A stretch of DNA of 32,000 nucleotides, taken from contig NZ_CP030918.1 in NCBI RefSeq assembly GCF_003324675.1, positions 2,400,001 through 2,432,000 of the forward strand. The letters are read 5' to 3'. Source of the DNA: Paracoccus suum. GTDB taxonomy: Bacteria; Pseudomonadota; Alphaproteobacteria; Rhodobacterales; Rhodobacteraceae. The translations under genes were made by a program, and so were the position numbers. Positions 11,808 through 24,675 of this stretch are shown one piece after another (position 1 is the first letter of the stretch; each line of letters begins with the position of its first letter). A model generated the notes under the pieces. That model did not search any database, was not told the origin of the DNA, and saw only the letters and a program-made list of their open reading frames with translations.

Positions 11808-12315
11808 TCTCGATCTTCAGCGTGCCGGGCCGGACGGTGCGCGCGGGCTCGAAACCGGCCCGGATTGCATCCGGCCAGGCAGCGTATTTGCGCTCGGGCA
11901 CCTTGAAGCCGACGTCGACATACTGGGCCGGATCGTCCCCGGCGGCGCGGATGCGCTCGACCATGGCCGCGAGGCGGTCCTGATCCCAATCCACCCGCTT
12001 CGGCAGGTCGGCAACGATGGTGAAGTCGCCATCGTCGAAGCGGATCGTGCCGGTGTCCTTGCCCGCAGCCTGCCGGATTTCGGCCGCGCGAGTGGCGTAG
12101 CGGGCCGTCAGGGCGCCATCGAGGCGAGCCTTCGCAGCCTTGATCCGCCCCATGCGCGCGTCGACCTCGTGCTGCAGGATGGCCAGCAGTTCGACGGGCA
12201 GCTGGGCGATGTCCTGCAGGCCGAGGCCCGGCAGGTCGTCGACGGTGGGGGTGTTCGCAGGGAACGGCATGTAGGGGTCTCCATGATCGGGAAGGAAGGA
12301 CTGGAAGGCGACCAT
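11782..12315 (-). CDS. hypothetical phage protein (coiled-coil N-terminal half)
   Basis: 177-aa ORF. ATG 12313-12315 overlaps the upstream stop. Protein-like composition. It occupies the position that Gp157-like proteins often hold upstream of Sak4, but I cannot confirm homology. Confidence 0.6.
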   Translation of the reverse strand: MVAFQSFLPDHGDPYMPFPANTPTVDDLPGLGLQDIAQLPVELLAILQHEVDARMGRIKAAKARLDGALTARYATRAAEIRQAAGKDTGTIRFDDGDFTIVADLPKRVDWDQDRLAAMVERIRAAGDDPAQYVDVGFKVPERKYAAWPDAIRAGFEPARTVRPGTLKIEIVPQEGDQ

Positions 12316-12668
12316 CAGGCGACCTCCTGCTCGGCGAGCAGAAGCGCGGAGAGCGAGACGGCTGCGGCCTTCGGCTTGGGCCGGGCGATGGCGATGTAGG
12401 CGAACTGGTCTGGGCCCGAGCGCTCCTGCACCAGGTGCACGAGGCCCTGTTCGGCGGCCCAGAAGGCGCGCGACCCGAGCCGGGCCAGTTCCGCGCGCTG
12501 CTGGTCCGGCAGCCGGGCGAACATCGGGAAGATGTCGAGGGCCAGAAAGCCGCGATGGTATTCCAGCCGGTCGCCCGGCACGGCCTGCGCCACCCAGGCG
12601 CAGAACTCGGTCTCGGTGAGCGGTCGGCGCGCGCGGACCGTGATGAAGGGGGTGGTGCCCATGAACAT
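12315..12668 (-). CDS. hypothetical 117-aa protein
   Basis: Strong AAGGAGGAG RBS ~6 nt upstream of ATG 12668. Protein-like composition. Confidence 0.65.
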   Translation of the reverse strand: MFMGTTPFITVRARRPLTETEFCAWVAQAVPGDRLEYHRGFLALDIFPMFARLPDQQRAELARLGSRAFWAAEQGLVHLVQERSGPDQFAYIAIARPKPKAAAVSLSALLLAEQEVA

Positions 12669-12690
12669 GATCTCCTCCTTTCGCCTCTAC

Positions 12691-13284
12691 TCAGGCCGTC
12701 GCGAGATCGTCCCAGGCGGGACCGAGACCGTGGGCGGTGAGGACGAGGCGGAGATCGGCGAGGCGGCGGTAGAGCGCGGACCGGCTGCCGAAACCCTCAG
12801 CCGCCAGCGCGGTGACGGGGCGATGCGCCAGCGCTGCGCAGAACCGGCGATCCTCAACCGGGAGCCGCGCGAGGGCGACCTGCAGGGCGTGGTGAAGTTC
12901 AGTGACGGCCGTCGCGGAGCAGGTCTGGCCATGCCAGGCGGCAAGCCCGTCCTCCGCGGTCAGGGTATTGCCGACCGGCTCGCGGGTTCCGGCCAGCGGC
13001 ACCTCAAGCGAGAGCATCGTCCCGCCCTGCGCACGGCGCCGGCGGTGATGGCGCATCGCGATCCGCGAGGACTGGTTGCGCAGGACGATGTTGGCGAAAG
13101 CGCCGATCCCGCCGCGCGAGGGGTCGTAGGCCGGCGAGCGGCGCAGGAGATCGATCAGGAGGTCTTGGCCCAGATCCTCGCGCTCGCAGACCGGCAGGCA
13201 CAGCTTGCGCCGCAGCCGTTGTGCCGCCGCATCCGCCTCGCGGATGATGGTTTCAATGTCGTCGGGGGAAAGTTCGATCTGCAT
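12691..13284 (-). CDS. sigma-70 family (ECF-like, regions 2 and 4) factor; first gene of the minus-strand operon
   Basis: DLGQDLLIDLLRR...DPSRG.IGAFANIVLRN resembles region 2. SRSALYRRLADLRLVL is a region-4-like HTH. The size (197 aa) is typical of ECF sigmas. Confidence 0.6.
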   Translation of the reverse strand: MQIELSPDDIETIIREADAAAQRLRRKLCLPVCEREDLGQDLLIDLLRRSPAYDPSRGGIGAFANIVLRNQSSRIAMRHHRRRRAQGGTMLSLEVPLAGTREPVGNTLTAEDGLAAWHGQTCSATAVTELHHALQVALARLPVEDRRFCAALAHRPVTALAAEGFGSRSALYRRLADLRLVLTAHGLGPAWDDLATA

Positions 13285-13549
13285 CGCTGTGCGCCTCGGT
13301 CATCGTTTCTGATGAGCCCAAGGTGCCGGATGCTGTCGGCGCGCAGGTGGGAACGGGGTGGGAATAAGGTGGGGGGTTGGTGGGGCGTCCAGACCTGAGC
13401 GTCAGTTTCTCGTGCAGGTCTCCATCAAAGCCCTTGGCCATCAGCCAAAGGGCAGCACTATTGTAGCGCATGTGCCTTCGGGGCCTACCCGTCGACAGTG
13501 CCACGCAGGTGATGCAACATCGGCATATACTGAGCTGGAAATCGAACGC

Positions 13550-15211
13550 ATGAACTTGAAGCCTCCGCCGGTCGACAAGGGACGAGCCGGCCTCGATGAA
13601 TTTCGCAGGAATGCGAAACTATACGAACTATCGCTTACAAACCGGATGAGCCGAGAGTTCTATCGGGCGGATCTAACGAAGTGGCAAAAGCTCTACGCGA
13701 CCTTGGCTGCAAAACGCGAGCCGGGAAGCAACGCTGCGATCCACTTCGCTTCGCTGTCATCGCTTTGCGGCGATCTGTTGGATCAATATGGGCCCGAGTC
13801 ACCGCCAAAGAAGCGAGCACCAAAGACGACTACGTCGACCCGACTGGTGTATCCCGATTTCCCGGATGAAGTAACTCACAGGCTCCATTTTCTGGAAGGG
13901 CCTGGGGCGCGACGCCAGCGCGCCAATGACCTCGTGTCGCACGCCGCCTTCGTTTTTCGACAAACCTCCAGTACCGGTCGCGTTCTCGTCTCGGTTGGAA
14001 CCCGGCAAGATGATACCAGACTGTTCGAGCGGCTGGTCGAGGCAATTGGAGCGGGTCTGTTTGGTGATCCGGCGAAGTCCGGTTTTGATGCGGCGCGCCA
14101 AAACCCCCAGTGCGCCAGCGATGCGGTAACCCCTCTGGACAGGGTCTGGCAGGACAACAACCAGGCGCGCGGATATAGCTGGCAGGCGCGTGCTTTGGGC
14201 GATCAGTTCCGGGGCGTTGACGGCAAGGGGCTTCCACAAGACCTTCCGGACGTGAAGGACGCGCCCCCTTGGGATCCGGACCCAAAGTGGCAAAATATTC
14301 TGAACTTGACGGAAGCGAACCGACTCCTTGATGCGATGGATTTGGTGGAAGCCATCCCAGGGCGTGATCGTGAGGCGCTTTTGGACGAGGTGATATATCT
14401 GAAATTCCTGACAGATCGCGAAATCCGAGCTGATGACGTGAGGCTGATCGCTCGTAAGTATGCAGCGACGTCGCTCATCGCGGGTCGCCTGCATGACGAG
14501 TTCGAGGCATTTGTGGCCTACTTGGATCAGGAGTTGCAGGACGATCCGCCCGTGCTTTCCAAACTGATTCGATTTGACCCTGACTTTGGCCAAGGGATGA
14601 TCCCTGTGCCGCCTCCCGCGTCGGACTGGCCAGCATACCGTGCATATCAGGCTCAGTTCATCAACTCTACGGCGCCTCGTGGCCGCATCTTCTCAGTAAA
14701 CATCGATGTTGGCTTCGCCAATGTCGAGAGCCTGCTCGCGGGGCATATGGCGCTGGCAGAGGACGCGTTTCGCCGCGATCGATCTATACCGGAGATCGGT
14801 GCGAGCGGGGGGATTTCCGAGCTTGCACTTCTTGACCTTTTCTGTGCGATTTGGCCCAACGCCAAGCACCAATGGCGCCCCTGGTTTCTTGGCCGTCAGT
14901 CGATCGACATATACATTCCCGAGATAAACTTGGCAGTAGAGTATCAAGGCCAGCAGCATTACGAGCCGGTCGCACTGTTTGGCGGCGAGGAAGGCTTCAA
15001 GAACGCACAGGTTCGGGATGAGCGAAAGCGACTGCTACTGAAGGCGAACAGCGTCCGCCTCCTTGAGTGGCGATATGATGCACCGATATCGAGAAAAGCG
15101 CTGATGCTAAAGCTGGCTGACATTGGGATATCTTTGCCACTCGAAGATTGGAGTGAGCTGGCGTCTCAGCCGTCAACCACGATATCCGAAGCGGGGACGC
15201 CAAGCCGATAG
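13550..15211 (+). CDS. 553-aa protein: unrecognised ~450-aa N-terminal region fused to a DUF559/Vsr-like PD-(D/E)XK endonuclease domain
   Basis: C-terminus reads RQSIDIYIPEINLAVEYQGQQHYEPVALFGGEEGFKNAQVRDERKRLLLKANSVRLLEWRY. This fits the D...(E)xQ/K...H...RD..K pattern of the DUF559 / restriction-endonuclease-like fold. First in-frame ATG is used (13550); its RBS is weak, so the start is uncertain. GC is visibly lower than in the flanks. Confidence 0.7.
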   Translation: MNLKPPPVDKGRAGLDEFRRNAKLYELSLTNRMSREFYRADLTKWQKLYATLAAKREPGSNAAIHFASLSSLCGDLLDQYGPESPPKKRAPKTTTSTRLVYPDFPDEVTHRLHFLEGPGARRQRANDLVSHAAFVFRQTSSTGRVLVSVGTRQDDTRLFERLVEAIGAGLFGDPAKSGFDAARQNPQCASDAVTPLDRVWQDNNQARGYSWQARALGDQFRGVDGKGLPQDLPDVKDAPPWDPDPKWQNILNLTEANRLLDAMDLVEAIPGRDREALLDEVIYLKFLTDREIRADDVRLIARKYAATSLIAGRLHDEFEAFVAYLDQELQDDPPVLSKLIRFDPDFGQGMIPVPPPASDWPAYRAYQAQFINSTAPRGRIFSVNIDVGFANVESLLAGHMALAEDAFRRDRSIPEIGASGGISELALLDLFCAIWPNAKHQWRPWFLGRQSIDIYIPEINLAVEYQGQQHYEPVALFGGEEGFKNAQVRDERKRLLLKANSVRLLEWRYDAPISRKALMLKLADIGISLPLEDWSELASQPSTTISEAGTPSR

Positions 15212-16116
15212 CCCCGGTTGCGCACGGTCATGATCAGGGTCTTGCTCTCGAGATCGGTGAAGCCCGCAGCCTTGAACGCGTCGCGCAGCTCGCGGATCAG
15301 ATCCTTGGCCTCGCGCGCCGTCGTGCCTTCGACATGGGATCCGGAGGCGACCTGATCGCGCGACAGCGCCTTTTCCAGCAGGCGCTCGAACACGGGGAAG
15401 ATCTGACGCGACAGAATGACGGAGCGACCGTTCCAGTTAACCTCGGCCGTGGCTCGCCGAACGCGAAGCACGGGCGTCACCGGGACCGGCGCCAAGGCAG
15501 CGACGTCGATTGCGGCGCCGAGACCATCCGAGGCGGGCGTCAGCAGCGCGAGGGTTTCGACCAGATGAAAGCCAGCATCGTGATGTCGCCGGGCAGCCTC
15601 CGGGGGTAACTCCGGTGCGAGTATCGTGATGTCCGAGCCCTGCGCGGCCTGGCGCAACGATGCGATGATGCCGTCGCCGGTGAGGGCTGCAGGCTCAAGC
15701 GCAAGAAACACCGCCCCTCCCAATGGCGTATCGCCGAGCCGCCAGACCTTCTCCCTCGCGAGTTTCGGGGCCGCGCCGAACCCTGCTGCCGCGCCGATCA
15801 CGGATGCCAGCGCTTCACTGCCGATGCGGAACGCCCGCAGATCGTCCTCGGTGAGATCGATGTCCTGTCGGCGATCGAGCGGACACTCGGCCCGAAATGC
15901 ATCACCCGCTTTCCGGATCGGCCGACAGGGGAGGCCGCACTCGCATGCATCGCAGACCTCCCATTCGGTGAGCGGCGCCTGTTCGACGAGGACGCGCCTT
16001 GCCAGCAGCCGATCGAAGAGCGGACCAAAGAAGGGTGCGGCAAGCTCGCCGGGCAGGATCGCGTCGTCGCCTGCCTCACTCAGCCGCGTCAACAAGCTCA
16101 AAATCGTCTCGGTCAT
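15166..16116 (-). CDS. 316-aa protein: N-terminal Cys cluster plus C-terminal OmpR/PhoB-type winged-helix DNA-binding domain
   Basis: Cys cluster: CDACECGLPCRPIRKAGDAFRAEC. C-terminus: VNWNGRSVILSRQIFPVFERLLE...IRELRDAF...IMTVRNRGYRLG, matching the trans_reg_C pattern (..Lt..Ef.ll..L....I..LR.k.....I.TvrG.GYrl). No receiver domain. Confidence 0.7.
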   Translation of the reverse strand: MTETILSLLTRLSEAGDDAILPGELAAPFFGPLFDRLLARRVLVEQAPLTEWEVCDACECGLPCRPIRKAGDAFRAECPLDRRQDIDLTEDDLRAFRIGSEALASVIGAAAGFGAAPKLAREKVWRLGDTPLGGAVFLALEPAALTGDGIIASLRQAAQGSDITILAPELPPEAARRHHDAGFHLVETLALLTPASDGLGAAIDVAALAPVPVTPVLRVRRATAEVNWNGRSVILSRQIFPVFERLLEKALSRDQVASGSHVEGTTAREAKDLIRELRDAFKAAGFTDLESKTLIMTVRNRGYRLGVPASDIVVDG

Positions 16117-17317
16117 TCATCAGCCCGTTCCGTTCGATCAGCTTCATCACCCGCGCTTCATGTTGGGTGCGGCGAAACTGCACGACGCCCGGAGGCCGCA
16201 GCTTGACCGTCACCTGCGACTGGCGCTTGCCGTCGCCCTTGAACAGGATCCGGAACACGAGCTCGCCCAGCCGCCAGGCGCCGGCGAACGAGACCGGTGT
16301 GCTACCGAAATGCTGGAGCGCGTCACCGCCGAGATCCCGCGAACGCAGCGTGCGCACCACGCGGGGATACCCCTTCTTGCCGGGCGCCATCAGGTCGGCC
16401 GCCGCCTCGATGATCAGCACCTTGTCGATCAGCGGATCGTAGGCGGCATCGAAGGCGAAGCCCGGTCCGGCCAGTTCGACCGGGCGCAGGGTATAGAGGT
16501 CCTGCGCATCGTCGCCGTCAAAGAAACCGGGCCTGTCCAGAATGATCGAGGCGAAAAGTTCCGCGATCTCAGGCTGATGCGCCTTCCGGATGCGGGCCAG
16601 CCGCAGCATGCCGGTGTTTTCAGAGTATCGCAGCACCGCGTGCGAAATTTGCCGCACGCTGATGACCCGCTCCTGCTGGCCCTCGACGACCGGCATGGTC
16701 GAGACCATGGAGCCATGGCTGACCACGAGATTGATCTCGTCATCGTCGTCGTAATCGCCCACCCGGCAGTAATCGCCGAGGAACGCATCGCGGAACAGCT
16801 CCGCGACGGCCGTCCGGAATGCCTCTACCTTCTCCTCGGTCAGGTCGATTGCGACGCCGCGTTCCCGCCCGGCGTACTCATGGAGGCGATCAGCGGTGAG
16901 CATCGCCATGTGGTCGGCGGCGGCATCGAACAGCTCGGGATGCTCCAGAAAGACCCGGACGGCGATGTGTTTGGGGTCATGCGCCTTGTTCGGCGCGTCC
17001 TCGTCGCCGGTCTTCATGTCCGGGAACAGATCGATGCCCTGACGATCGGCCTGCGCCTGGATGATCTCCAGGCCGCGGGCATCGCCCAGTTCCGCGATGC
17101 GGTGCAGATCGCCGCGCAGCCCTTCAGGATAGCTGTCCTCGGCGCCGGTCAGCAGCTTCTCCAGCGCCTCGCGGGCGGCATCCTCCTCCTGGTCCAGCAG
17201 ATCGACGGAGAAGCTCTTGTACTTGCCCTCGTGCCGAGCCAGCAGCGGCTTCATCAGGGCGAGGTCGATGGTCTTGATGAACCGGGGGTTCACGAACTTC
17301 TTCAGATTGCCGGCCAT
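16076..17317 (-). CDS. 413-aa protein of unknown function (no motif recognised)
   Basis: GGAGAGGA RBS ~8 nt upstream of ATG 17317. Protein-like acidic composition. No Walker A, nuclease or HTH motif seen. Overlaps the downstream wHTH gene by 41 nt. Confidence 0.7.
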   Translation of the reverse strand: MAGNLKKFVNPRFIKTIDLALMKPLLARHEGKYKSFSVDLLDQEEDAAREALEKLLTGAEDSYPEGLRGDLHRIAELGDARGLEIIQAQADRQGIDLFPDMKTGDEDAPNKAHDPKHIAVRVFLEHPELFDAAADHMAMLTADRLHEYAGRERGVAIDLTEEKVEAFRTAVAELFRDAFLGDYCRVGDYDDDDEINLVVSHGSMVSTMPVVEGQQERVISVRQISHAVLRYSENTGMLRLARIRKAHQPEIAELFASIILDRPGFFDGDDAQDLYTLRPVELAGPGFAFDAAYDPLIDKVLIIEAAADLMAPGKKGYPRVVRTLRSRDLGGDALQHFGSTPVSFAGAWRLGELVFRILFKGDGKRQSQVTVKLRPPGVVQFRRTQHEARVMKLIERNGLMNDRDDFELVDAAE

Positions 17318-17455
17318 CCCGAATCCTCTCCGCTGCAGGTTGTTTGTTCATCTTATGTTTCCGGCGCGTGAGCATGCAACCTGTGCGTGATCGCGTGGGA
17401 CGAACCTCGAGAGAGGTGAGTAGAGGCCCGAGGAGACGACCGACCCGAGGCCCGC

Positions 17456-17659
17456 ATGAAACGCCCGAACCCACTCCCCCCCGATCGGATGACCGCCGCT
17501 GAGCGCCGCACGGAGCTGTGCAACCTGCTGGCGCTCGGGCTGGTTCGGTTGCGGATGCGAGAGCGAGGCGAACACCCTGACGATACTGGAGAAATTTGCC
17601 TACACTCTCCGACCGACCAATGCCGTCATGCAACTCCAACTCACCGGAGAACCGCATGA
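17456..17659 (+). CDS. small conserved-looking ORF preceding DUF2924 (67 aa)
   Basis: Its stop (17657-17659) overlaps the DUF2924 ATG (17656-17658) as ATGA. The pattern MTAAERRTELCNLLALGLVRLRMRE...GE..L..SP.Q..HA resembles short ORFs I recall upstream of recombinase cassettes in alphaproteobacteria. The start could instead be the internal ATG at 17489. Confidence 0.5.
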   Translation: MKRPNPLPPDRMTAAERRTELCNLLALGLVRLRMRERGEHPDDTGEICLHSPTDQCRHATPTHRRTA

Positions 17660-18111
17660 CGACCCACGATCCGATCCCCGCGCGCCTGGCCGCGCTGAAC
17701 ACCGCGACGACGCCGGACCTGAAGAAGCAGTGGCGGGAGATGTTCGACAGCGAGCCGCCGCCGTTCAACCGCCGCTACCTCGAAAGCCGGCTGGCCTACC
17801 GCATCCAGGAACTCGCCTATGGCGGGCTGAAGCCGGAGACGATCCGGCGCCTCGAACGGCTCGGCGAGGAACTGGACGGCGGCGACAGGAAGAAGCGTGG
17901 CATGCGCGCCGACCGTGACCGCCCGATCACCGGGACGCGGTTGCTGCGCGAGTGGCAGGGTGTCGAGCAGGTCGTCACCGTCACCGCCGATGGCTTCGAA
18001 TGGCAGGGGCGGCCCTACAAGTCGCTGTCCGCCATCGCCCGCGCCATCACCGGCACCCGCTGGAATGGCTGGACCTTCTTCGGGCTCAAGAACCACAGGG
18101 GTCGGAAATGA
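17656..18111 (+). CDS. DUF2924 domain protein (serine-recombinase accessory)
   Basis: LKKQWREMFDSEPPPFNRRYLESRLAYRIQELAYGGLKPET...GTRLLREWQG..H.V.V...GFEWQGRPYKSLSAIARAITGTRWNGWTFFGL is the classic DUF2924 pattern. GGAGAA RBS 6 nt upstream. Confidence 0.8.
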   Translation: MTTHDPIPARLAALNTATTPDLKKQWREMFDSEPPPFNRRYLESRLAYRIQELAYGGLKPETIRRLERLGEELDGGDRKKRGMRADRDRPITGTRLLREWQGVEQVVTVTADGFEWQGRPYKSLSAIARAITGTRWNGWTFFGLKNHRGRK

Positions 18112-19433
18112 CGAAGCCGCCCGAAAAAGCGAAGGTCGTCCGCAAGCTGCGCTGCGCGGTCTACACCCGGAAATCCTCCGAGGAGGGACTGGAGCAGGAG
18201 TTCAACTCGCTCCATGCCCAGCGTGAGGCTTGCGAAGCGTACATCGCCAGCCAGCGCTCCGAGGGTTGGGTGCTGGTCCGCGATCAGTATGACGATGGCG
18301 GCATATCCGGCGGCACGCTCGAGCGCCCCGGCTTGAAGCGGCTGCTGGAGGACATCGAGGACGGGCTGGTCGACGTGGTGGTGGTCTACAAGATCGACCG
18401 CCTCAGCCGCTCGCTGGCCGATTTCGCCAAGCTGGTCGAGGTATTCGACCGGAACGGCGTCACCTTCGTCTCGGTGACGCAGAGCTTCAACACCACGACG
18501 TCGATGGGGCGGCTGACGCTGAACATCCTGCTCAGCTTCGCCCAGTTCGAGCGCGAGGTGACGGCCGAGCGGATCCGCGACAAGGTCGCCGCCAGCCGGA
18601 AGAAGGGGATGTGGATGGGCGGCGTGCCGCCCTACGGCTACCGCGTCGAGAACAGGAAGTTGCTGGTCGACGAGGAAAGCGCCCCACATGTGCGCTGGAT
18701 CTTCGCCCGCTTCCTCGAGATCGGGTCCTGCACGGAACTGGCGCGGGAGGTCGGCACGCGCGGCATCCGCACTCCCCGCGGCAACCGGATCGACAAGAAA
18801 TACATCTATCGGATGCTCAGCAACCGCGCCTACATCGGCGAAGCGGTCCACAAGGGCGACAGCTATCCCGGCGAACACGACGCGATCATCGACAGCGCGA
18901 CGTGGGACCGCGTCCACGCCATCCTGCTGGAAAGCCCGCGCAAGCGCGCCGCCCGGACTCGCGCCGACACACCTGCGTTGCTGAAGGGGCTGCTCTACGG
19001 CCCGGACGGCGCTGCCTTCTCGCCGACGCATACCCGCAAGGGCGGACGGCTGTACCGCTACTATGTCAGCCAGACGGTGCTGAAGCATGGCGCCGGATCG
19101 TGTCCAGTCGGCCGCGTGCAAGCGGGGGAGATCGAGGCGGCCGTCATTGACCAGCTGCGCACCGTGTTCCGCCAGCCTGAGATCGTTGCAGGGACGTGGA
19201 AGGCGGCGCGTGCGGAGATCGGCGACATCACCGAATCCGACGCCCGCGCGGCGCTGCAGCAACTCGATCCGCTGTGGAACGAACTCTTCCCCGCCGAGCA
19301 GGCGCGAATCGTGGCGCTGCTGGTCGGGCGCGTGGACATCGGCATGGACGGATTGAACGTCCGGCTCCGCATGGATGGTCTTGGCGCCCTTGCGCGCGAG
19401 ATACTGGCCGGAGACATGGGAGCGGCCGCATGA
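18108..19433 (+). CDS. large serine recombinase (resolvase/invertase catalytic domain plus recombinase domain)
   Basis: AVYTRKSSEEG (catalytic Ser), VYKIDRLSRSL, SFAQFERE, GGVPPYGY. ATG 18108-18110 overlaps the DUF2924 stop as ATGA. Confidence 0.9.
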   Translation: MTKPPEKAKVVRKLRCAVYTRKSSEEGLEQEFNSLHAQREACEAYIASQRSEGWVLVRDQYDDGGISGGTLERPGLKRLLEDIEDGLVDVVVVYKIDRLSRSLADFAKLVEVFDRNGVTFVSVTQSFNTTTSMGRLTLNILLSFAQFEREVTAERIRDKVAASRKKGMWMGGVPPYGYRVENRKLLVDEESAPHVRWIFARFLEIGSCTELAREVGTRGIRTPRGNRIDKKYIYRMLSNRAYIGEAVHKGDSYPGEHDAIIDSATWDRVHAILLESPRKRAARTRADTPALLKGLLYGPDGAAFSPTHTRKGGRLYRYYVSQTVLKHGAGSCPVGRVQAGEIEAAVIDQLRTVFRQPEIVAGTWKAARAEIGDITESDARAALQQLDPLWNELFPAEQARIVALLVGRVDIGMDGLNVRLRMDGLGALAREILAGDMGAAA

Positions 19434-19852
19434 CCCGCGGCACGCCGGTTCCTCAGACCGTGACGCTCCACGTCCCGTTCCGCGTCGTGAAGCGCGGTGG
19501 GCGCAAGGAGATGCAGTTGCCTGCCGGCGCCGCGCAACAGCGCAAGGCAAACAGCACACTTATCAAGGCTCTGGCCCGCGCGTTCCGCTGGAAGCGAATG
19601 CTCGAGTCGGCTGAATTTGCCACCATCGCTGAACTGGCTGAGCGAGAGGGGATTGCGCAATCATACATGACGCGTGTCCTCCGACTCACGCTGCTCGCCC
19701 CCCACATCGTCGAGGCGATCCTCGACGGGCGGCACGACCCGGAGGTGGAGCTGACGCGGCTGTCTGAGCCGCTTCCGTTCGAGTGGGCAGACCATTCCGC
19801 CCACTTCACGAAAGCCACCAAAGGGGGAACGCGCGCATGCGCCGATGTCTAA
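19430..19852 (+). CDS. recombinase-associated HTH protein (ParB/KorB-like HTH)
   Basis: ATG 19430-19432 overlaps the recombinase stop as ATGA. TIAELAEREGIAQSYMTRVLRLTLLAPHIVEAILDGR is a ParB-type HTH plus the 'LAPDIVEAIL.G' motif. Confidence 0.7.
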   Translation: MTRGTPVPQTVTLHVPFRVVKRGGRKEMQLPAGAAQQRKANSTLIKALARAFRWKRMLESAEFATIAELAEREGIAQSYMTRVLRLTLLAPHIVEAILDGRHDPEVELTRLSEPLPFEWADHSAHFTKATKGGTRACADV

Positions 19853-19983
19853 GAGGATCCCAGATTATTCCCACGCAACCGCCTGAGGGGGTACGCAAAG
19901 TGGTTTGCACCGGCTATACGCATCCCTTAAGGAGCCGCAAGAACAATGGCGGAACACTGCGCGACGCGCACGAAAGTCTGACG

Positions 19984-21972
19984 ATGGAATTTGATGTTGA
20001 TGCCGAGCTGTCGAAGCTCACCCGAGACGAGCTCGAGCGCCTTGCGAAGAGCATGATGACCAGCGGGGTGGCGCTCAGCTTCCACGGCCGACGTTCCGCC
20101 ATGCAGATCGCCAAGCGTGTCCGTCCTCGCCAGACTCGCCGGGAGCCTCGCCTCAATGTTGGCACGCCGGAGGCTCAAGCGAGGAATATGCTGATCGAAG
20201 GCGAAAACCTCCAAGCAATGGTGACGCTGTACAAGTATCGGGGCCAAGTCGATCTGATCGTCACGGATCCCCCTTACAACACCGGGCAGTATTTTCGCTA
20301 CAACGACCGGTGGGACAACGACCCGAACGACCCGGACCTCGGAACCATCGTGTCCAACGAGGACGGCTCCAAGCACACGAAATGGATCAAGGCAATGATG
20401 CCCCGCCTTCAGATAATGAAGGCGATGCTTAAACCATCCGGCGTGGTAGCAATCTGTATCGATGATAACGAGCTTTTTCATCTCGGTATGATGATGGACG
20501 AAGTTTTCGGGGAGAATAACCGGGTAGCTATCATCAATTGGCAGAAAGCATACTCTCCGAAAGGCGGAAATTCGATATCGAAGACCACTGATTACGTATT
20601 GGTCTACGCGAAGGACAAAGATCTCTCGAGGATGCAGCTGCTCCCGATTGACCGGTCTGGCACGAAGAACATTGACGGCGATGATGGGGGGGACTGGATT
20701 CCAACAGACCCGACAGCCAGGCAACACCGTGGAGCCACAGCCTATGCAATCCAGTCGCCGTTTACGGGCCATTTGCATTATCCAAACGGGGAATACGTCT
20801 TCGATGGACAGCTTCCGGAGCCCAGATCGCACTGGGTAAACTTCACAAAAGAGGAGGTCATCAAGTATCTCGCTGAGTGGGGTGTGAAGTACGTTGAACG
20901 CGACCTAGGCGATGGCCGGGGCAACGCTCTAGTCATCGCTGACTCTGATGTTGCCTTGGAGGGGTATCGGCCAGACCGGGACATGGCGGTTCAGCGAGCT
21001 GCACAGCTGGCGACTGAGCGTCGACAAAAGGGCAATTGGCCAAAGCTCTTCTTTCGCGACGATAAGAGTAGGAGACCTGGCGCGGGCCGCCCGCGGCTCA
21101 AGACGCCGATCGATGCAGTTCGGGCTGGCATGATTCCGACAACCTTCTGGGATGAAGATTTGTATGAATTCCCGATCGAGATCGGGTCCGTCACGTGGCC
21201 ACATGCACAATCTGGCCATTCAGATATGGCTCGCAAAGAGCTGGACGCGATCGTTGGAAAAGGACATGCGTTCGATACGGTTAAGCCTTTGCGTCTCCTA
21301 AAGAAGATCATCCAAATCTGGTGTCCACCAGAAGGTCTGGTTCTCGATCCTTATGCTGGTTCTGGATCGACAGGTCACGCAGTTCTTGAACTCAATCATG
21401 ACCTCGGCTCCTCCAGGCGTTTTATACTCATCGAGCAAGGCGCGCCTGAGAACGGTGACAAATATGCTCGTACACTGACTTGGCAACGCCTCAAGAACGC
21501 TGTGACTGGGGAGCGGCCCACGGGTAAACCAGCTACAGCCCTAGGCGGCGGCTTCGAGTATCGGCTCCTCACGAAGACCATCGACGCGAAGACGGTTCTC
21601 ACCATGCAGCGGGACGAGCTGATAGATGTGGTGCTGACTTCCCACTGGGAGACGCATAAGCGTTCTGCCCCGAGCCTCACCCGAGTTGATGGCGTTGACT
21701 ATCAGTATCTTGTCGGGAAGGATCAGAATGGTGAGGGATACTTCTTGATTTGGGACAATGGTGGCCCTGTCGGATCCCTTAACCGCGACACATACAAGCA
21801 AGTCGTGTCCGAGGCTAAAAAGGCTGGCCTTGAACCACCTTTCCATGTCTACGCCCGATACGAGCTTTTCCAGTCGTCGAACGTTCGTTTCTGGAAGATT
21901 CCGGACAAGATCCTTGCGGATCTTGGTTTGACGGACAATGATCAGTTCAACAATTCTGACGATAACGAATAA
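19984..21972 (+). CDS. mod: Type III-like restriction-modification methyltransferase (Mod; beta-class N6A/N4C MTase)
   Basis: TDPPYNT (motif IV) in the N-terminal third, ICIDDNE, and LDPYAGSGSTGHA (motif I) in the C-terminal third give the permuted order typical of Type III Mod. Stop TAA 21970-21972 overlaps the res ATG (TAATG). Low GC. Confidence 0.85.
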   Translation: MEFDVDAELSKLTRDELERLAKSMMTSGVALSFHGRRSAMQIAKRVRPRQTRREPRLNVGTPEAQARNMLIEGENLQAMVTLYKYRGQVDLIVTDPPYNTGQYFRYNDRWDNDPNDPDLGTIVSNEDGSKHTKWIKAMMPRLQIMKAMLKPSGVVAICIDDNELFHLGMMMDEVFGENNRVAIINWQKAYSPKGGNSISKTTDYVLVYAKDKDLSRMQLLPIDRSGTKNIDGDDGGDWIPTDPTARQHRGATAYAIQSPFTGHLHYPNGEYVFDGQLPEPRSHWVNFTKEEVIKYLAEWGVKYVERDLGDGRGNALVIADSDVALEGYRPDRDMAVQRAAQLATERRQKGNWPKLFFRDDKSRRPGAGRPRLKTPIDAVRAGMIPTTFWDEDLYEFPIEIGSVTWPHAQSGHSDMARKELDAIVGKGHAFDTVKPLRLLKKIIQIWCPPEGLVLDPYAGSGSTGHAVLELNHDLGSSRRFILIEQGAPENGDKYARTLTWQRLKNAVTGERPTGKPATALGGGFEYRLLTKTIDAKTVLTMQRDELIDVVLTSHWETHKRSAPSLTRVDGVDYQYLVGKDQNGEGYFLIWDNGGPVGSLNRDTYKQVVSEAKKAGLEPPFHVYARYELFQSSNVRFWKIPDKILADLGLTDNDQFNNSDDNE

Positions 21973-24299
21973 TGGAACCCATCGAATTTCAAGCCCGCGC
22001 CGCAGCGCAAGTTGCTCGGCGCTTCACCGATTACGCTGCAGACCCGCTAATGGTGAATCGCACCACGCCTGTTCCGTTTCTGCAGACGCTCGTGGCGATC
22101 ACCGGCAGCGGCAAAACGTTGATGCTAGCTGAGGCTGTTGCGCGGATTGGCGAAGAGCTTCCTCTTCCGCCGGTGGTTCTGTGGATATCGAAGGGACGTG
22201 TGGTGGTCTCGCAGACCTTCGAGAACCTTTCGTCTGGCAAGTATGCGGATAACCTCCCCGGTTTTCGAGTTATGCCGTTGCTGGAAGCCGCGCCCGAACA
22301 CTTGAGCAGCGAACATGAGCCGTTGCTCCTCGTTGCAACCGTTGGCAAGTTCGCGATCGACGACGCGTCGAGCGAGGAGCGCAAGGTTTATAGGGCTCAG
22401 CTCGACTTGGCAGAGGAGTCCCTGTGGGAGCTACTTAAGAAGCGCCGTACTGCGAAGGGACAGAGGCGTCCCCTGATCGTCGTCTATGACGAAGGACACA
22501 ACCTGTCCGATCTTCAGACCGATCGGCTCCTAGAACTCGCACCTGATGCGCTGATCGTTGCTAGCGCCACCATGTCGCTGCCGCCGCGTCTGAATAATGT
22601 CATCTCTCGCCTTCGTAGCGACCAAGGATGGACCGATCCGGATTTCTCGACGACCGTCTCGAGCCCAGAGGTCGTGGAGGCCCAATTGGTGAAGCAGCGG
22701 ATATCAATTGACGGATACATCACCCCGCTAGAACCCGCGCTAGATAACTTGCTGACCGACATGCGGAGGGCGCAGCAAGCAGCTCAAAATCTGAAGCTGC
22801 CTTTCCGACCAAAGGCCATATATGTCTGCTCCACCAATACTGTGGATGGCGTGCCAGTCTCAGAAGACCTCAAAAGGCCCTTTCAGGAACGACAGGCCCG
22901 GCCCATCCTAATATGGCGACACCTCGTCGAGGTCGCAAAGGTAGACCCAGCCAAGATCGCCGTCTACTGTCAGCTTAAATTCTCGAAGGAATCGCAGAAG
23001 CCGCCAGAAATGCACCTCTTCGATGGGGCGGAAAAAGACTACTCCCGATTCATCGCCGGCGACTACGAGCACATCATTTTCAATCTTGGCCTTCAGGAAG
23101 GCTGGGACGATCCAGCGGCGTCTTTCGCATACATAGACAAAGAAATGGCGTCAGCGCGACAAATCACTCAGGTCGTCGGGCGAGTCCTTCGGCAACCCGG
23201 GGCACAGCACTACAGCGATCCGGTCATGAACACGGCGCACTTCCACATCCGGACCGATGAGAAGCGGGTCTTCGACGACATCTTGACGCAGATCCGCGCG
23301 GACCTGGTTTCCGAGCATCCGTCCATAGCGTTGGTGGTGAAGGATGAGAAAACCCGAGGGAAGAAGGACAGCCTAGACCCACGGCCGGCTCGGACCATAC
23401 CCACTGTCGCGATTGAAAGTAGCGATGCGCTAGAGCCTATAGGGAAGATCGTCAAAGGAATGATGGACTTCCGAGACGGCGGACAGAACACGATCGGTCA
23501 AGGGAGCCGCATGCAGGTACTGCAGCTCATTGGATCGGAGACGGATCCACATTATGACTGGGTCGAAGTAGATCACAGCAACCGGATTATGACACGCCAT
23601 GTATTCCGCCGTGAGATTCAAAGGTGCTATCCGGGTGGGCTGCGAAGAGCGGGCGGCCCGATCAACTTGGTGGATATCGAGGACCCGAAGTTTGATGCGT
23701 TGATCGAGGCCAGCAGCCCGGCTGCAGAGCATATAAGGGAGACGGCTCGCAAAGTGGTAGAGGCCTATATTCAGCACTCCTTGGTTTTCCAGGATGATGC
23801 GGGCCACCCCTATTCAGTTGGACCGATAGCGGTTGACAGCAACGGAGGCGAGACTTTCAAAAAGTCGCTGCACGAACGCTATTCTGGCCTGAACGGCTTT
23901 GAACTGAGGTTTGCGAGGGCGATCGACAAGACCCAACGGGTCTGGACGCGGAACCCGTCCGGCAGCGGATATTCGATCCCACTATTGCATGCCGGGAAGG
24001 CGTACTTCCCCGACTTCCTCGTCTGGATAGATAAGGACATCGTGGCTATCGATACAAAGGGCACGCACCTTCTGCTTGAGGCATCGGCATCAAAATTGTT
24101 CGAGATCGGCGGATCAGAGGGAGGGCGACGGATCGTTCTTCGTCTCGTGTCGGAGGGGCATGTCGAAATTTCTAACGGCACCATCCACACCCGCAAGACA
24201 GCGGGCTTCACTGTCTGGGTGTGGCGGCATGGCCGTCCGCAGCCCATCTTCTGCGACACCGAGAAAGAGGCGGCGGAGATCTCCATCCGGCTCGACTGA
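21972..24299 (+). CDS. res: Type III-like restriction enzyme Res subunit (SF2 helicase plus C-terminal PD-D/ExK nuclease)
   Basis: ITGSGKT (motif I), VYDEGHN (DExH), VASATM (motif III), VVGRVLR (motif VI). C-terminal YFPDFLVWIDKDIVAIDTKG gives PD...DxK. At 775 aa it is shorter than classical Res proteins. Confidence 0.85.
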   Translation: MEPIEFQARAAAQVARRFTDYAADPLMVNRTTPVPFLQTLVAITGSGKTLMLAEAVARIGEELPLPPVVLWISKGRVVVSQTFENLSSGKYADNLPGFRVMPLLEAAPEHLSSEHEPLLLVATVGKFAIDDASSEERKVYRAQLDLAEESLWELLKKRRTAKGQRRPLIVVYDEGHNLSDLQTDRLLELAPDALIVASATMSLPPRLNNVISRLRSDQGWTDPDFSTTVSSPEVVEAQLVKQRISIDGYITPLEPALDNLLTDMRRAQQAAQNLKLPFRPKAIYVCSTNTVDGVPVSEDLKRPFQERQARPILIWRHLVEVAKVDPAKIAVYCQLKFSKESQKPPEMHLFDGAEKDYSRFIAGDYEHIIFNLGLQEGWDDPAASFAYIDKEMASARQITQVVGRVLRQPGAQHYSDPVMNTAHFHIRTDEKRVFDDILTQIRADLVSEHPSIALVVKDEKTRGKKDSLDPRPARTIPTVAIESSDALEPIGKIVKGMMDFRDGGQNTIGQGSRMQVLQLIGSETDPHYDWVEVDHSNRIMTRHVFRREIQRCYPGGLRRAGGPINLVDIEDPKFDALIEASSPAAEHIRETARKVVEAYIQHSLVFQDDAGHPYSVGPIAVDSNGGETFKKSLHERYSGLNGFELRFARAIDKTQRVWTRNPSGSGYSIPLLHAGKAYFPDFLVWIDKDIVAIDTKGTHLLLEASASKLFEIGGSEGGRRIVLRLVSEGHVEISNGTIHTRKTAGFTVWVWRHGRPQPIFCDTEKEAAEISIRLD

Positions 24300-24585: not shown

Positions 24586-24675
24586 TGGCGGAGAGGGTGG
24601 GATTCGAACCCACGGAACCCTTGCAGGCTCAACGGTTTTCGAGACCGCCCCGATCGACCACTCCGGCACCTCTCC
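24586..24675 (-). tRNA. tRNA-Ser (anticodon CGA), CCA encoded
   Basis: Reverse complement: GGAGAGGTGCCGGAGTGGTCGATCGGGGCGGTCTCGAAAACCGTTGAGCCTGCAAGGGTTCCGTGGGTTCGAATCCCACCCTCTCCGCCA. It has a 7-bp acceptor stem GGAGAGG/CCTCTCC, anticodon loop CT-CGA-AA, a long variable arm (class II) and a GGTTCGAATCC T-loop. Confidence 0.9.

What the first reader, a model, noticed from the sequence alone, without database searches (positions are those of the whole stretch)
15166..17317. Overlapping two-gene operon: unknown 413-aa protein plus Cys-cluster / OmpR-type winged-helix protein without a receiver domain
The two ORFs overlap by 41 nt (16076-16116), which suggests tight co-expression. The downstream protein has an OmpR/PhoB-type wHTH at its C-terminus but no response-regulator receiver. 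In its place is a C-x2-C-x-C-x3-C...C cluster and an Ala/Gly-rich middle region. The upstream protein shows no ATPase, nuclease or HTH motif that I can see. This does not match a standard two-component layout.
Basis: partly seen in the sequence, partly recalled or inferred. Interest (0 to 1): 0.65.

Follow-up and report, generated by a model that had tools for sequence, protein, structure and literature searches.

The report
SOS-gated prophage switch gene pair
The two overlapping genes are real and form the conserved first operon of a widespread but unstudied family of alphaproteobacterial prophages; they most likely relay a host DNA-damage signal into phage gene activation.

Summary
Both ORFs are real genes under purifying selection. 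They are adjacent in about 160 related loci, and the out-of-frame overlap of 29-41 nt is conserved. They lie in a prophage-like element, divergent from a DUF2924 plus large serine recombinase module and upstream of a sigma-factor-like gene and a phage replication/recombination module.

Gene A (413 aa) has no sequence family. Its AlphaFold model matches the RdgC / CENP-N DNA-binding fold, the fold class reported for lambda RexA.

Gene B (316 aa) has an N-terminal winged-helix-like domain, a Cys4 cluster, a receiver-like alpha/beta remnant with no conserved acceptor Asp, and a C-terminal OmpR/PhoB wHTH.

Two cis elements were found. A LexA box (GAAC-N7-GAAC) overlaps the -10 region of the A promoter in 154 of 161 loci; the window copy has one mismatch. 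Four 11-bp-phased direct repeats lie upstream of the sigma-like gene. Their core (CCCAC, CACAC, CCCAG, CCCAT) co-varies with B's recognition helix and is exchanged together with B in natural recombinants.

Best model (inferred): host LexA represses the operon; DNA damage releases it; B then activates the sigma-like gene. A's role is unresolved. This is a new variant of a known kind (GIL01-like logic).

The parts
16076..17317 (-). Gene A, 413 aa. New protein family with no Pfam, NCBIfam, PHROG or PADLOC hit. Predicted RdgC/CENP-N (RexA-class) DNA-binding fold.
15166..16116 (-). Gene B, 316 aa. Domains: N-terminal winged-helix-like domain (aa 5-53), Cys4 cluster, receiver-like alpha/beta remnant, C-terminal OmpR/PhoB wHTH.
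16076..16116 (-). 41-nt out-of-frame overlap of the A stop and the B start, read as translational coupling. Conserved as 41 or 32 nt in relatives.
15883..15954 (-). Codons for the Cys cluster C55, C58, C60, (C64), C78 of B. C55, C58, C60 and C78 are invariant. Putative zinc ribbon.
15544..15765 (-). B residues 118-191: alpha/beta domain resembling the C-terminal half of a receiver. No conserved acceptor Asp.
15181..15471 (-). B residues 216-312: OmpR/PhoB-type winged helix-turn-helix. Recognition helix at about aa 270-283 (TTAREAKDLIRELR).
17346..17360 (-). LexA (SOS) box-like direct repeat AAACATAAGATGAAC, one mismatch to GAAC-N7-GAAC, 43 nt upstream of the A start. A -10-like ATAAGA lies inside the spacer.
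   Evidence: motif from PMC9578287 and PMC3091678
17376..17381 (-). -35-like GGTTGC of the A/B promoter, conserved in all allele types.
   Evidence: read directly from the sequence; inference
13341..13384 (-). Four direct repeats phased at 11 bp (CCCACCaaccc CCCACCttatt CCCACCccgtt CCCACCtgcgc), ending 56 nt (last CCCACC core: 61 nt) upstream of the sigma-like gene start. Proposed B-binding, pho-box-like array.
12691..13284 (-). Divergent ECF-sigma-like gene (197 aa), the proposed target of B. It is the first gene of the conserved replication/recombination operon.
13550..15211 (+). Cargo gene with a C-terminal homing-endonuclease-like domain, lower GC, inserted in the variable B-to-sigma spacer. 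Shared only with L008. Not part of the core module.
17456..19433 (+). Divergent integration module: conserved small ORF (17456-17659), DUF2924 (17596-18111) and a large serine recombinase (18108-19433).

Best explanation
A and B are the first, translationally coupled genes of the leftward early operon of a 40-58 kb temperate-phage-like element of Alphaproteobacteria. Their sigma-70-type promoter has a host LexA operator (GAAC-N7-GAAC) over its -10 region. The inference is that the pair is held off in the lysogen and released by the SOS response. B is a receiver-less OmpR/PhoB-type DNA-binding protein. It is proposed to bind, as head-to-tail dimers, the four 11-bp-phased repeats that sit where a -35 element would be upstream of the sigma-factor-like gene, and so to switch on that gene and the replication/recombination genes behind it. 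A is a DNA-binding protein of the RdgC/RexA fold class, made in fixed ratio with B. It probably works with B on DNA, or tunes the RecA/LexA decision as RdgC and RexA do. Shown here: gene reality, synteny, the domains, the two cis motifs, and their conservation and co-variation. Inferred: LexA binding, B binding, the sign of regulation, and the role of A.
For: Context. The pair is divergent from DUF2924 plus a serine recombinase and lies upstream of a sigma70_r2-like gene, a Sak4-like annealase, a Cas4-type exonuclease, a primase/helicase and a RuvC-like resolvase. Synteny holds down to 44% identity. There are 145 relatives in IMG/VR viral contigs of 40-58 kb. LexA box. A perfect GAAC-N7-GAAC sits at -40 to -45 from the A start in 77 of 81 genome loci and 77 of 80 viral loci. 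The half-sites are invariant and the spacer varies across allele types whose flanking DNA is unalignable. This is the published alphaproteobacterial SOS box. A distant relative, L086, instead carries its own LexA/S24 repressor gene directly upstream of A-B. Repeats. The four-unit array is unique in the window (3 overlapping matches against 0.05 expected). Equivalent arrays are present in all 64 genome loci listed and in 67 of 78 viral loci. The repeat core co-varies with B's recognition helix: REAK with CCCACC, RPAN or RTPR with CACAC, RAAS with CCCAG. Cassette exchange. In L050, L080 and L082 the flanks are about 86% identical at the DNA level, but the block [A promoter + A + B + repeats] is replaced. 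L024 against L023 and L027 keeps A at 92-95% and the flanking genes at 85-99%, but swaps the C-terminal two-thirds of B (45%) together with repeats 1-3. This ties repeat identity to B and not to A. A-B coupling. The overlap is conserved, and a natural A-B fusion, P0417, lies next to a serine recombinase. Folds.. The precedent for 'host LexA represses an early promoter, which makes a phage activator' is GIL01.
Against: There is no experimental data. No transcription start site is known, so activator and repressor geometries cannot be separated. No clear -10 element follows the repeats. The window's own LexA box has a G-to-A change in its first half-site, so control in this copy may be weakened. 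Co-variation of helix and repeats is confounded by shared ancestry, and several distinct wHTH clusters share the CCCAC core. The sigma-like assignment is weak: Pfam E=3.5e-4 below cut-off, NCBIfam 1.5e-5 below cut-off, PDB SigE 0.05. In the distant relative L085 the pair lies beyond the recombinase next to an ordinary ImmR/ImmA/Cro switch, and in L086 a terminator follows B. The pair can therefore be an accessory to a classical switch rather than the switch output. The fold match of A to RdgC is modest (TM 0.31-0.45), with no sequence signal.
Confidence: 0.55

Rival explanations
1. B is the immunity repressor. It is made at a low, LexA-leaky level in the lysogen, occupies the four repeats and blocks the sigma-like gene or read-through into it. 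A/B plus the repeats would then be the element's immunity cassette.
For: The mosaic replacement of [promoter + A + B + repeats] between otherwise about 86%-identical elements resembles lambdoid immunity-region swapping. No CI, Cro or XRE-type repressor was found between the recombinase and the replication genes in this family. B evolves faster than A. Some genomes carry two or three elements, with different B types (L010, L011 and L047 in one strain).
Against: The LexA box over the A/B promoter predicts low expression in the lysogen and high expression after damage, the opposite of what a maintenance repressor needs. The array lies upstream of the space where a promoter can fit (61 nt to the ATG), which is pho-box-like activator geometry. 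B has no self-cleavage or sensing domain.
Confidence: 0.17
2. A/B is a Rex-like, prophage-expressed exclusion or switch-biasing accessory. A would be a RexA analogue, with B in place of RexB. It would protect the lysogen from other phages or bias commitment to lysis, and would not be a core activator.
For: A's model matches RdgC and CENP-N. This is the same fold class reported for lambda RexA, which binds DNA non-specifically and biases the switch toward lysis. In L086 the order is LexA/CI-like repressor, A, B, terminator, parallel to cI-rexA-rexB. In L085 the pair sits at the prophage end beyond the integrase. The adjacent spacer is a hot spot for nuclease and defence-type cargo.
Against: No sequence similarity to RexA. 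B is a soluble DNA-binding protein, not a membrane protein like RexB. There is no PADLOC hit and no effector domain. A/B are universally present and fixed in position, unlike the variable cargo next to them. The repeats that co-vary with B point to specific gene regulation.
Confidence: 0.15
3. A/B controls site-specific or homologous recombination, either as a directionality factor for the neighbouring large serine recombinase or as a RecA modulator of the RdgC type.
For: The linkage of A to a large serine recombinase persists down to 22% identity (L083, L085, L086). RdgC is recombination-associated and inhibits RecA activities. SOS-timed expression would suit an excision factor.
Against: A/B alleles are exchanged independently of the recombinase: the recombinase is about 90% identical where A is 45% and B 34%. 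That argues against a specific protein-protein partnership with the recombinase. The OmpR-type wHTH plus co-varying repeats lie next to the sigma-like gene, not next to an att site.
Confidence: 0.08

Closest known systems
Bacillus phage GIL01 lytic switch (host LexA with gp7 on promoter P1; activator gp6 on late promoter P3)
   Same: There is no phage CI. A host LexA operator sits on the early promoter. The SOS-released early operon encodes a phage activator that turns on the next promoter.
   Different: The proteins are unrelated. Here the proposed activator is a receiver-less OmpR-type wHTH protein with a Cys4 cluster, the partner has an RdgC/RexA-class fold rather than being the 50-aa gp7, the target is a sigma-like gene, the element integrates through a serine recombinase, and the host is alphaproteobacterial with a direct-repeat SOS box.
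PhoB/OmpR-family activators on pho-box-type sites
   Same: B has a C-terminal wHTH of this family. Its proposed site is made of tandem 11-bp direct repeats with a conserved core and a variable spacer, placed where a -35 would be. The pho-box geometry is from established knowledge.
   Different: There is no phospho-acceptor receiver and no kinase partner. The N-terminus is a winged-helix-like domain plus a Cys4 cluster. Activity is presumably set by expression level or by protein A rather than by phosphorylation.
E. coli RdgC and lambda RexA (RdgC/RexA/IML3-CHL4 fold class)
   Same: The best Foldseek matches of the A model are RdgC (2owl, E=2.5e-5), CENP-N/CHL4 chains and phage 'RdgC' proteins. 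RexA belongs to the same fold class, lies in an immunity region and affects the lysis-lysogeny switch.
   Different: There is no sequence similarity by hhalign (probability below 1%). A is about 110-130 residues longer, with an extra N-terminal helical region. TM-scores are only 0.31-0.45. The partner is not RexB-like.
Orphan or atypical OmpR-family regulators (for example HP1043, PDB 2hqr; CadC/ToxR-type wHTH proteins)
   Same: These are phosphorylation-independent wHTH regulators, and they appear among the structural and sequence matches.
   Different: HP1043 keeps a complete receiver fold. CadC and ToxR carry the wHTH at the N-terminus and are membrane proteins. B has a different domain order and a phage context.

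Membership tests
OmpR/PhoB wHTH (Pfam Trans_reg_C, PF00486) | Sequence match to the family profile at the curated threshold | tested here: inconclusive
   The window protein alone scores E=0.12, 12.9 bits against a cut-off of 26.2. However, 39 of 50 homologues match (best 2.4e-9), and the family profile hits ArlR, PrrA, PhoB and other DNA-binding domains at 4e-10 to 1e-5.
OmpR/PhoB wHTH (Pfam Trans_reg_C, PF00486) | Fold: N-terminal beta-sheet, three helices and a C-terminal hairpin wing | tested here: met
   The AF2 model (pLDDT 86.5) has strands 217-234, helices 240-250, 259-263 and 270-283, and a hairpin at 295-305. Foldseek matches the ArlR, CovR, AdeR and PhoB DNA-binding domains with target-normalised TM 0.53-0.66 and rmsd 3.1-3.6 A.
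Two-component response regulator | Receiver domain with a conserved phospho-acceptor Asp and acidic pocket | tested here: not met
   No member hits Response_reg. The invariant or near-invariant residues in 118-200 are W125, G128, L127, R134, F137, P168 and A181, with no Asp. Only the C-terminal half of a receiver aligns (PrrA 54-232; BaeR and CosR over 195 columns).
Two-component response regulator | Cognate histidine kinase encoded nearby | tested here: not met
   No kinase was found in the window around the pair or in the conserved neighbourhood of the related loci examined.
RdgC family (PF04381) | Sequence membership | tested here: not met
   No Pfam hit for any of 57 members at E<=10. hhalign of the family against E. 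coli RdgC gives probability 0.04%.
RdgC/RexA/CENP-N fold class | Structural similarity of the base and centre domains | tested here: inconclusive
   Foldseek: 2owl E=2.5e-5, TM 0.31-0.45. CENP-N/CHL4 chains E=1e-4 to 5e-3. Phage RdgC proteins E about 5e-4, TM 0.3-0.45. The model has pTM 0.70. RexA itself was not among the top 50 matches.
RdgC/RexA/CENP-N fold class | Dimer that binds DNA non-specifically | not testable with these tools
   This needs SEC-MALS and EMSA, or a multimer prediction.
Lambda Rex exclusion system | RexA homologue paired with a RexB-like membrane protein next to a CI repressor | tested here: not met
   hhalign against lambda RexA gives probability 0.18%. The partner B is a soluble wHTH protein. 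A CI/LexA-like neighbour is seen only in the distant relative L086.
Alphaproteobacterial LexA regulon (SOS box GAAC-N7-GAAC / GTTC-N7-GTTC) | Direct-repeat box overlapping the promoter | tested here: met
   For the family, 77 of 81 and 77 of 80 loci have a perfect box at -40 to -45. The window copy is AAAC-N7-GAAC, one mismatch, at 17346-17360. The motif is taken from the literature.
Alphaproteobacterial LexA regulon (SOS box GAAC-N7-GAAC / GTTC-N7-GTTC) | LexA binding and damage-inducible transcription | not testable with these tools
   This needs EMSA and expression data.
Known anti-phage defence systems (PADLOC) | Match to a defence-system protein model | tested here: not met
   No hit at E<=0.1 for A, B or the neighbouring genes.
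Recombination directionality factor of the adjacent serine recombinase | Co-inheritance and co-variation with its recombinase | tested here: not met
   The recombinase is about 90% identical where A is 45% and B 34% (L050, L080, L082).

The most novel reading that the evidence does not exclude
A and B form a previously undescribed two-protein switch. An RdgC/RexA-fold DNA clamp is physically coupled (in one lineage fused) to a receiver-less, zinc-binding OmpR-type activator. Host LexA gates the pair, and the pair fires a phage sigma factor. The activator helix and its four-repeat operator are exchanged together as a specificity cassette, so that co-resident prophages do not cross-activate. A may feed back on RecA/LexA to set the induction threshold. 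This would be a second, modular solution, alongside GIL01, to running lysogeny without a phage repressor. It would also give the RexA/RdgC fold a defined regulatory partner.
Probability: 0.3. Interest if true: 0.7.

Novelty: new variant of a known kind. Interest (0 to 1): 0.58.

Why it matters
These elements are common in marine and soil Alphaproteobacteria, including Paracoccus, Ruegeria, Roseovarius, Shimia, Devosia, Bosea and Pannonibacter. The scans found 168 relatives in one-genome-per-species contigs and 145 in IMG/VR. No isolated phage in INPHARED carries either gene. A concrete circuit of LexA box, then A/B, then phased repeats, then a sigma-like gene gives a testable account of how such prophages sense DNA damage without a CI-type repressor. 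It would also assign a biological role to a large unnamed protein family (A), and provide naturally orthogonal activator-operator pairs (CCCAC, CACAC, CCCAG, CCCAT types). If A acts on RecA/LexA or on B, it would extend the still obscure biology of the RexA/RdgC fold.

Tried and rejected
- Single-sequence scans of A and B against Pfam, NCBIfam, PADLOC and PHROGs gave nothing usable.
- Pfam on all 57 A members at E<=10 gave only noise.
- tblastn of A, B, the 754-aa protein and the sigma-like protein against INPHARED phages found no match. A against PLSDB plasmids also found no match.
- Exact look-up of window proteins in the assembly index found nothing on record, so the element could not be extended to the left.
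- The A family profile against PDB sequences gave no real hit.
- hhalign of the A family against E. coli RdgC and lambda RexA found no sequence relationship.
- The consensus promoter/terminator scan of 12200-17800 found no terminator and nothing useful. The promoter elements named in this report were read from cross-locus conservation instead.
- A sigma-54 reading of the conserved GGCAC..TT.GG block downstream of the repeats was considered and dropped. The -12 element does not fit, and OmpR-type proteins are not sigma-54 activators.
- The directionality-factor idea was rejected because A/B swap independently of the recombinase.
- The literature search for DUF2924 plus serine recombinase returned only an unrelated Wolbachia paper. 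No paper on this element family was found.

Full report
**Observation**

The window holds ORF A at 16076-17317(-), 413 aa, and ORF B at 15166-16116(-), 316 aa. They overlap by 41 nt in different frames. A has an ATG preceded by GGAGAGG. B starts MTETILSLL inside the last 13 sense codons of A.

Both are real genes.
- A has 222 homologues at E<=1e-3 and B has 317. Their lengths cluster tightly at 413 and 316 aa.
- A profile of A finds 849 representatives in the 50%-clustered library.
- Pairwise dN/dS against relatives is 0.05-0.16 for A in comparisons of 69-97% amino-acid identity, and 0.32 at 54%. For B it is 0.21-0.30.

**Where it lies**

Right of the pair, on the other strand, are a conserved 67-aa ORF, a DUF2924 gene and a large serine recombinase. 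Next come a PHROG 'recombinase'-associated gene, a low-GC methyltransferase plus ResIII-helicase cargo, tRNA-Ser, and then host genes: a PALP enzyme, MscS and GyrA.

Left of the pair, on the same strand, are:
- a sigma70-region-2-like gene;
- two small genes;
- a Sak4-like annealase;
- a 754-aa protein with DUF6511;
- a Cas4-type exonuclease;
- a primase/helicase;
- a RuvC-like resolvase;
- ParB-methyltransferase and C5-methyltransferase genes.

This is the integration end and early region of a prophage-like element. Supporting this, 145 relatives of A lie in IMG/VR viral contigs of up to 58 kb, usually 2-10 kb from one end. No isolated phage in INPHARED and no PLSDB plasmid encodes A, and no INPHARED phage encodes B.

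**Conservation of the pair**

A scan of one genome per species found 168 relatives across Rhodobacterales, Hyphomicrobiales and other Alphaproteobacteria. In essentially every locus with enough sequence the order is the same. The recombinase, DUF2924 gene and small ORF sit on one strand; on the other strand run A, B, a spacer, the sigma-like gene, two small genes (117 and 177 aa in the window) and the annealase. In the viral set B follows A in 79 of 80 loci.

The overlap is 41 nt in 38 loci and 32 nt in at least 21, always in the same relative frame.

A very distant relative, P0417, is 22% identical to A over 370 residues. It is a single 755-aa protein whose C-terminus ends in a Trans_reg_C-like wHTH, and it lies divergent from a serine recombinase.

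Other distant A-like genes are also followed by B-like genes. hhalign of the B family against the L086 partner gives probability 90%, E=1.6e-6, over the N-terminal 200 residues.

**What the proteins are**

B's family profile matches OmpR/PhoB DNA-binding domains at E=4e-10. Thirty-nine of 50 members hit PF00486, but the window protein alone does not (E=0.12). The AF2 model has mean pLDDT 86.5 and shows four parts:
- a winged-helix-like unit at residues 5-53;
- a beta-ribbon carrying the four invariant Cys;
- a well-folded alpha/beta domain at 118-191;
- the wHTH at 216-312.

The best Foldseek matches are full-length OmpR-family regulators over about 195 columns: BaeR at 5.5e-5, then CosR, RpaA and PrrA. 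The sequence profile aligns to PrrA from residue 54 onward. The middle domain is therefore a receiver-like remnant. It has no conserved Asp, and no member hits Response_reg.

A has no sequence family. Its model has pLDDT 79.9 and pTM 0.70. It matches E. coli RdgC at E=2.5e-5 with TM 0.31-0.45, then CENP-N/CHL4 chains. In the viral library it matches phage proteins named RdgC.

The lambda RexA structure paper places RexA, RdgC and IML3/CHL4 in one DNA-binding fold class. It reports that RexA binds DNA non-specifically and biases the lambda switch toward lysis, and that RdgC reduces RecA-dependent LexA cleavage. At the sequence level A is unrelated to RdgC and RexA. The link is at fold level only and is of modest strength.

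**Two cis elements**

*LexA box.* Forty to 45 nt upstream of the A start, 77 of 81 genome loci and 77 of 80 viral loci carry a perfect GAAC-N7-GAAC. The half-sites are invariant. The 7-nt spacer varies and reads like a -10 hexamer (ATATTAT, ATAATCA and similar). A conserved GGTTG lies about 17 nt upstream. GAAC-N7-GAAC, equivalently GTTC-N7-GTTC, is the published LexA operator of Alphaproteobacteria. The window copy at 17346-17360 reads AAACATAAGATGAAC, one mismatch.

*Phased repeats.* Immediately upstream of the sigma-like gene lie four direct repeats phased at 11 bp. In the window they occupy 13341-13384(-): CCCACCaaccc CCCACCttatt CCCACCccgtt CCCACCtgcgc. The pattern CCCAC-N6-CCCAC occurs three times there and nowhere else in the window, against 0.05 expected by chance. 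Equivalent arrays occur in all 64 genome loci listed and in 67 of 78 viral loci. Their core differs between lineages: CCCAC(C), CACAC, CCCAG, CCCAT, CCCACg.

**Linking the repeats to B**

When B proteins are clustered on their wHTH, the core follows the start of the recognition helix:

| Recognition helix | Repeat core |
|---|---|
| TTAREAK-DLIRELR | CCCACC (also in L039, where B is only 49% identical overall) |
| QTGRPAN-EI.RDLR and QFQRTPR-EIVRDLR | CACAC |
| TTGRAAS-DLVREMR | CCCAG |
| NSGRGAA-DLVRELR | CCCAT |

Recombination breakpoints agree with this. L050, L080 and L082 are about 86% identical to the window in DNA from the recombinase up to 17394-17414, and again from 13271, which is 13 nt inside the sigma-like gene. 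Everything in between is replaced: the A promoter, A at 45%, B at 34%, and the repeats.

L024 compared with L023 and L027 keeps A at 92-95% and the flanking genes at 85-99%. It replaces B from about residue 80 onward (45% overall) together with repeats 1-3. The repeats therefore travel with the C-terminal part of B and not with A.

**Model**

Host LexA sits on the A/B promoter. DNA damage removes it. A and B are made in coupled amounts. B binds the four repeats as two head-to-tail dimers, as PhoB-type proteins do on pho boxes, and turns on the sigma-like gene and the downstream early genes.

The geometry fits an activator. In the compact alleles only about 115 nt separate the B stop from the sigma-like start. 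The array ends 56 nt before the ATG (the last CCCACC core 61 nt before it), so its last unit sits where a -35 would be.

The closest described logic is phage GIL01, where LexA represses P1 and the P1-encoded activator gp6 fires the late promoter.

The role of A is the weakest part of the model. The options are a DNA-bound co-factor of B, suggested by the coupling and the fusion, or a modulator of RecA/LexA, suggested by analogy with RdgC and RexA.

**Caveats and rivals**

- No transcription start is known, so B could equally be a repressor. The exchanged cassette would then be an immunity region, as its mosaic behaviour suggests.
- In distant relatives the pair accompanies a classical switch. 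In L085 it lies beyond the recombinase next to ImmR/ImmA/Cro. In L086 the order is LexA-like repressor, A, B, then a clear intrinsic terminator, a cI-rexA-rexB-like layout. This keeps a Rex-like accessory role alive.
- A directionality-factor role is unlikely, because A/B alleles swap independently of the recombinase.
- The sigma-like assignment is itself weak.

**Verdict**

The pair is a conserved, uncharacterised regulatory module of a large prophage family. It is best read as an SOS-gated activator pair, a new variant of a known kind of phage switch. Interest is moderate to high, because the circuit is concrete, widespread and directly testable.

Noticed in passing
window 13285-15165; related loci between B and the sigma-like gene (for example L024:12303-13958, L012:12227-13474, L007:12240-14681, L039:12202-13071): The spacer between B and the four repeats varies from about 110 bp to 3.5 kb and holds different cargo in different elements. 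Examples are GmrSD_N, a PLD-like nuclease, DUF4238, DUF3800, NOV_C, HNH nucleases and an RNase_T exonuclease. It looks like a hot spot for defence or nuclease cargo. The window's cargo is a roughly 553-617-aa gene with a homing-endonuclease-like C-terminus and lower GC, shared only with L008.
   Followed up: partly
window 19783-24299 and 24586-24675: A low-GC block (54-57% against about 67%) encodes an N6/N4 DNA methyltransferase and a ResIII/DEAD helicase. It lies between the recombinase module and tRNA-Ser(CGA). Host genes (PALP enzyme, MscS, GyrA) begin right after the tRNA. This is the likely right end of the element with restriction-modification or defence-like cargo.
   Followed up: partly
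window 17346-17360: The window's LexA-box-like site has A instead of G in the first half-site (AAAC-N7-GAAC), while 154 of 161 relatives have a perfect box. This copy may be less tightly repressed, or may be decaying.
   Followed up: partly
window 17456-17659(+): A 67-aa ORF (MKRPNPLPPDRMTAAERRTELCNLLALGLVRL...) upstream of DUF2924 is conserved in nearly all related loci at 45-85% identity. It has no Pfam hit. A conserved CGTCCCA lies between it and the A promoter in all allele types.
   Followed up: no
L010, L011, L047 (Ruixingdingia sedimenti LG-4); L008, L014 (Plastorhodobacter daqingensis): Single genomes carry two or three copies of the element. In R. sedimenti two are CCCAC-type and one is CACAC-type. 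Coexistence of different B/repeat types fits selection against cross-talk.
   Followed up: no
L022, L032, L037, L041: Near-identical high-GC copies are filed under Oceanobacillus, Exiguobacterium, a gammaproteobacterial MAG and a Desulfobacteraceae MAG. These are probably contamination or mis-binning rather than true hosts.
   Followed up: no
L019, L020, L040, L041, L042: Some copies are decayed. In L040 (Amaricoccus macauensis) A is truncated by a frameshift. In L019 and L020 B and the downstream genes are deleted, and in L020 A abuts the primase/helicase gene.
   Followed up: no
window 13285-13340 and equivalents: A block between the repeats and the sigma-like start, GGCA(C/G)..T.GG...CATCAGAAACGATGACCGAGG, is conserved across allele types. 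It contains a small TCATC/GATGA hairpin just before the RBS. Its role (promoter, 5' UTR element) is unknown.
   Followed up: no
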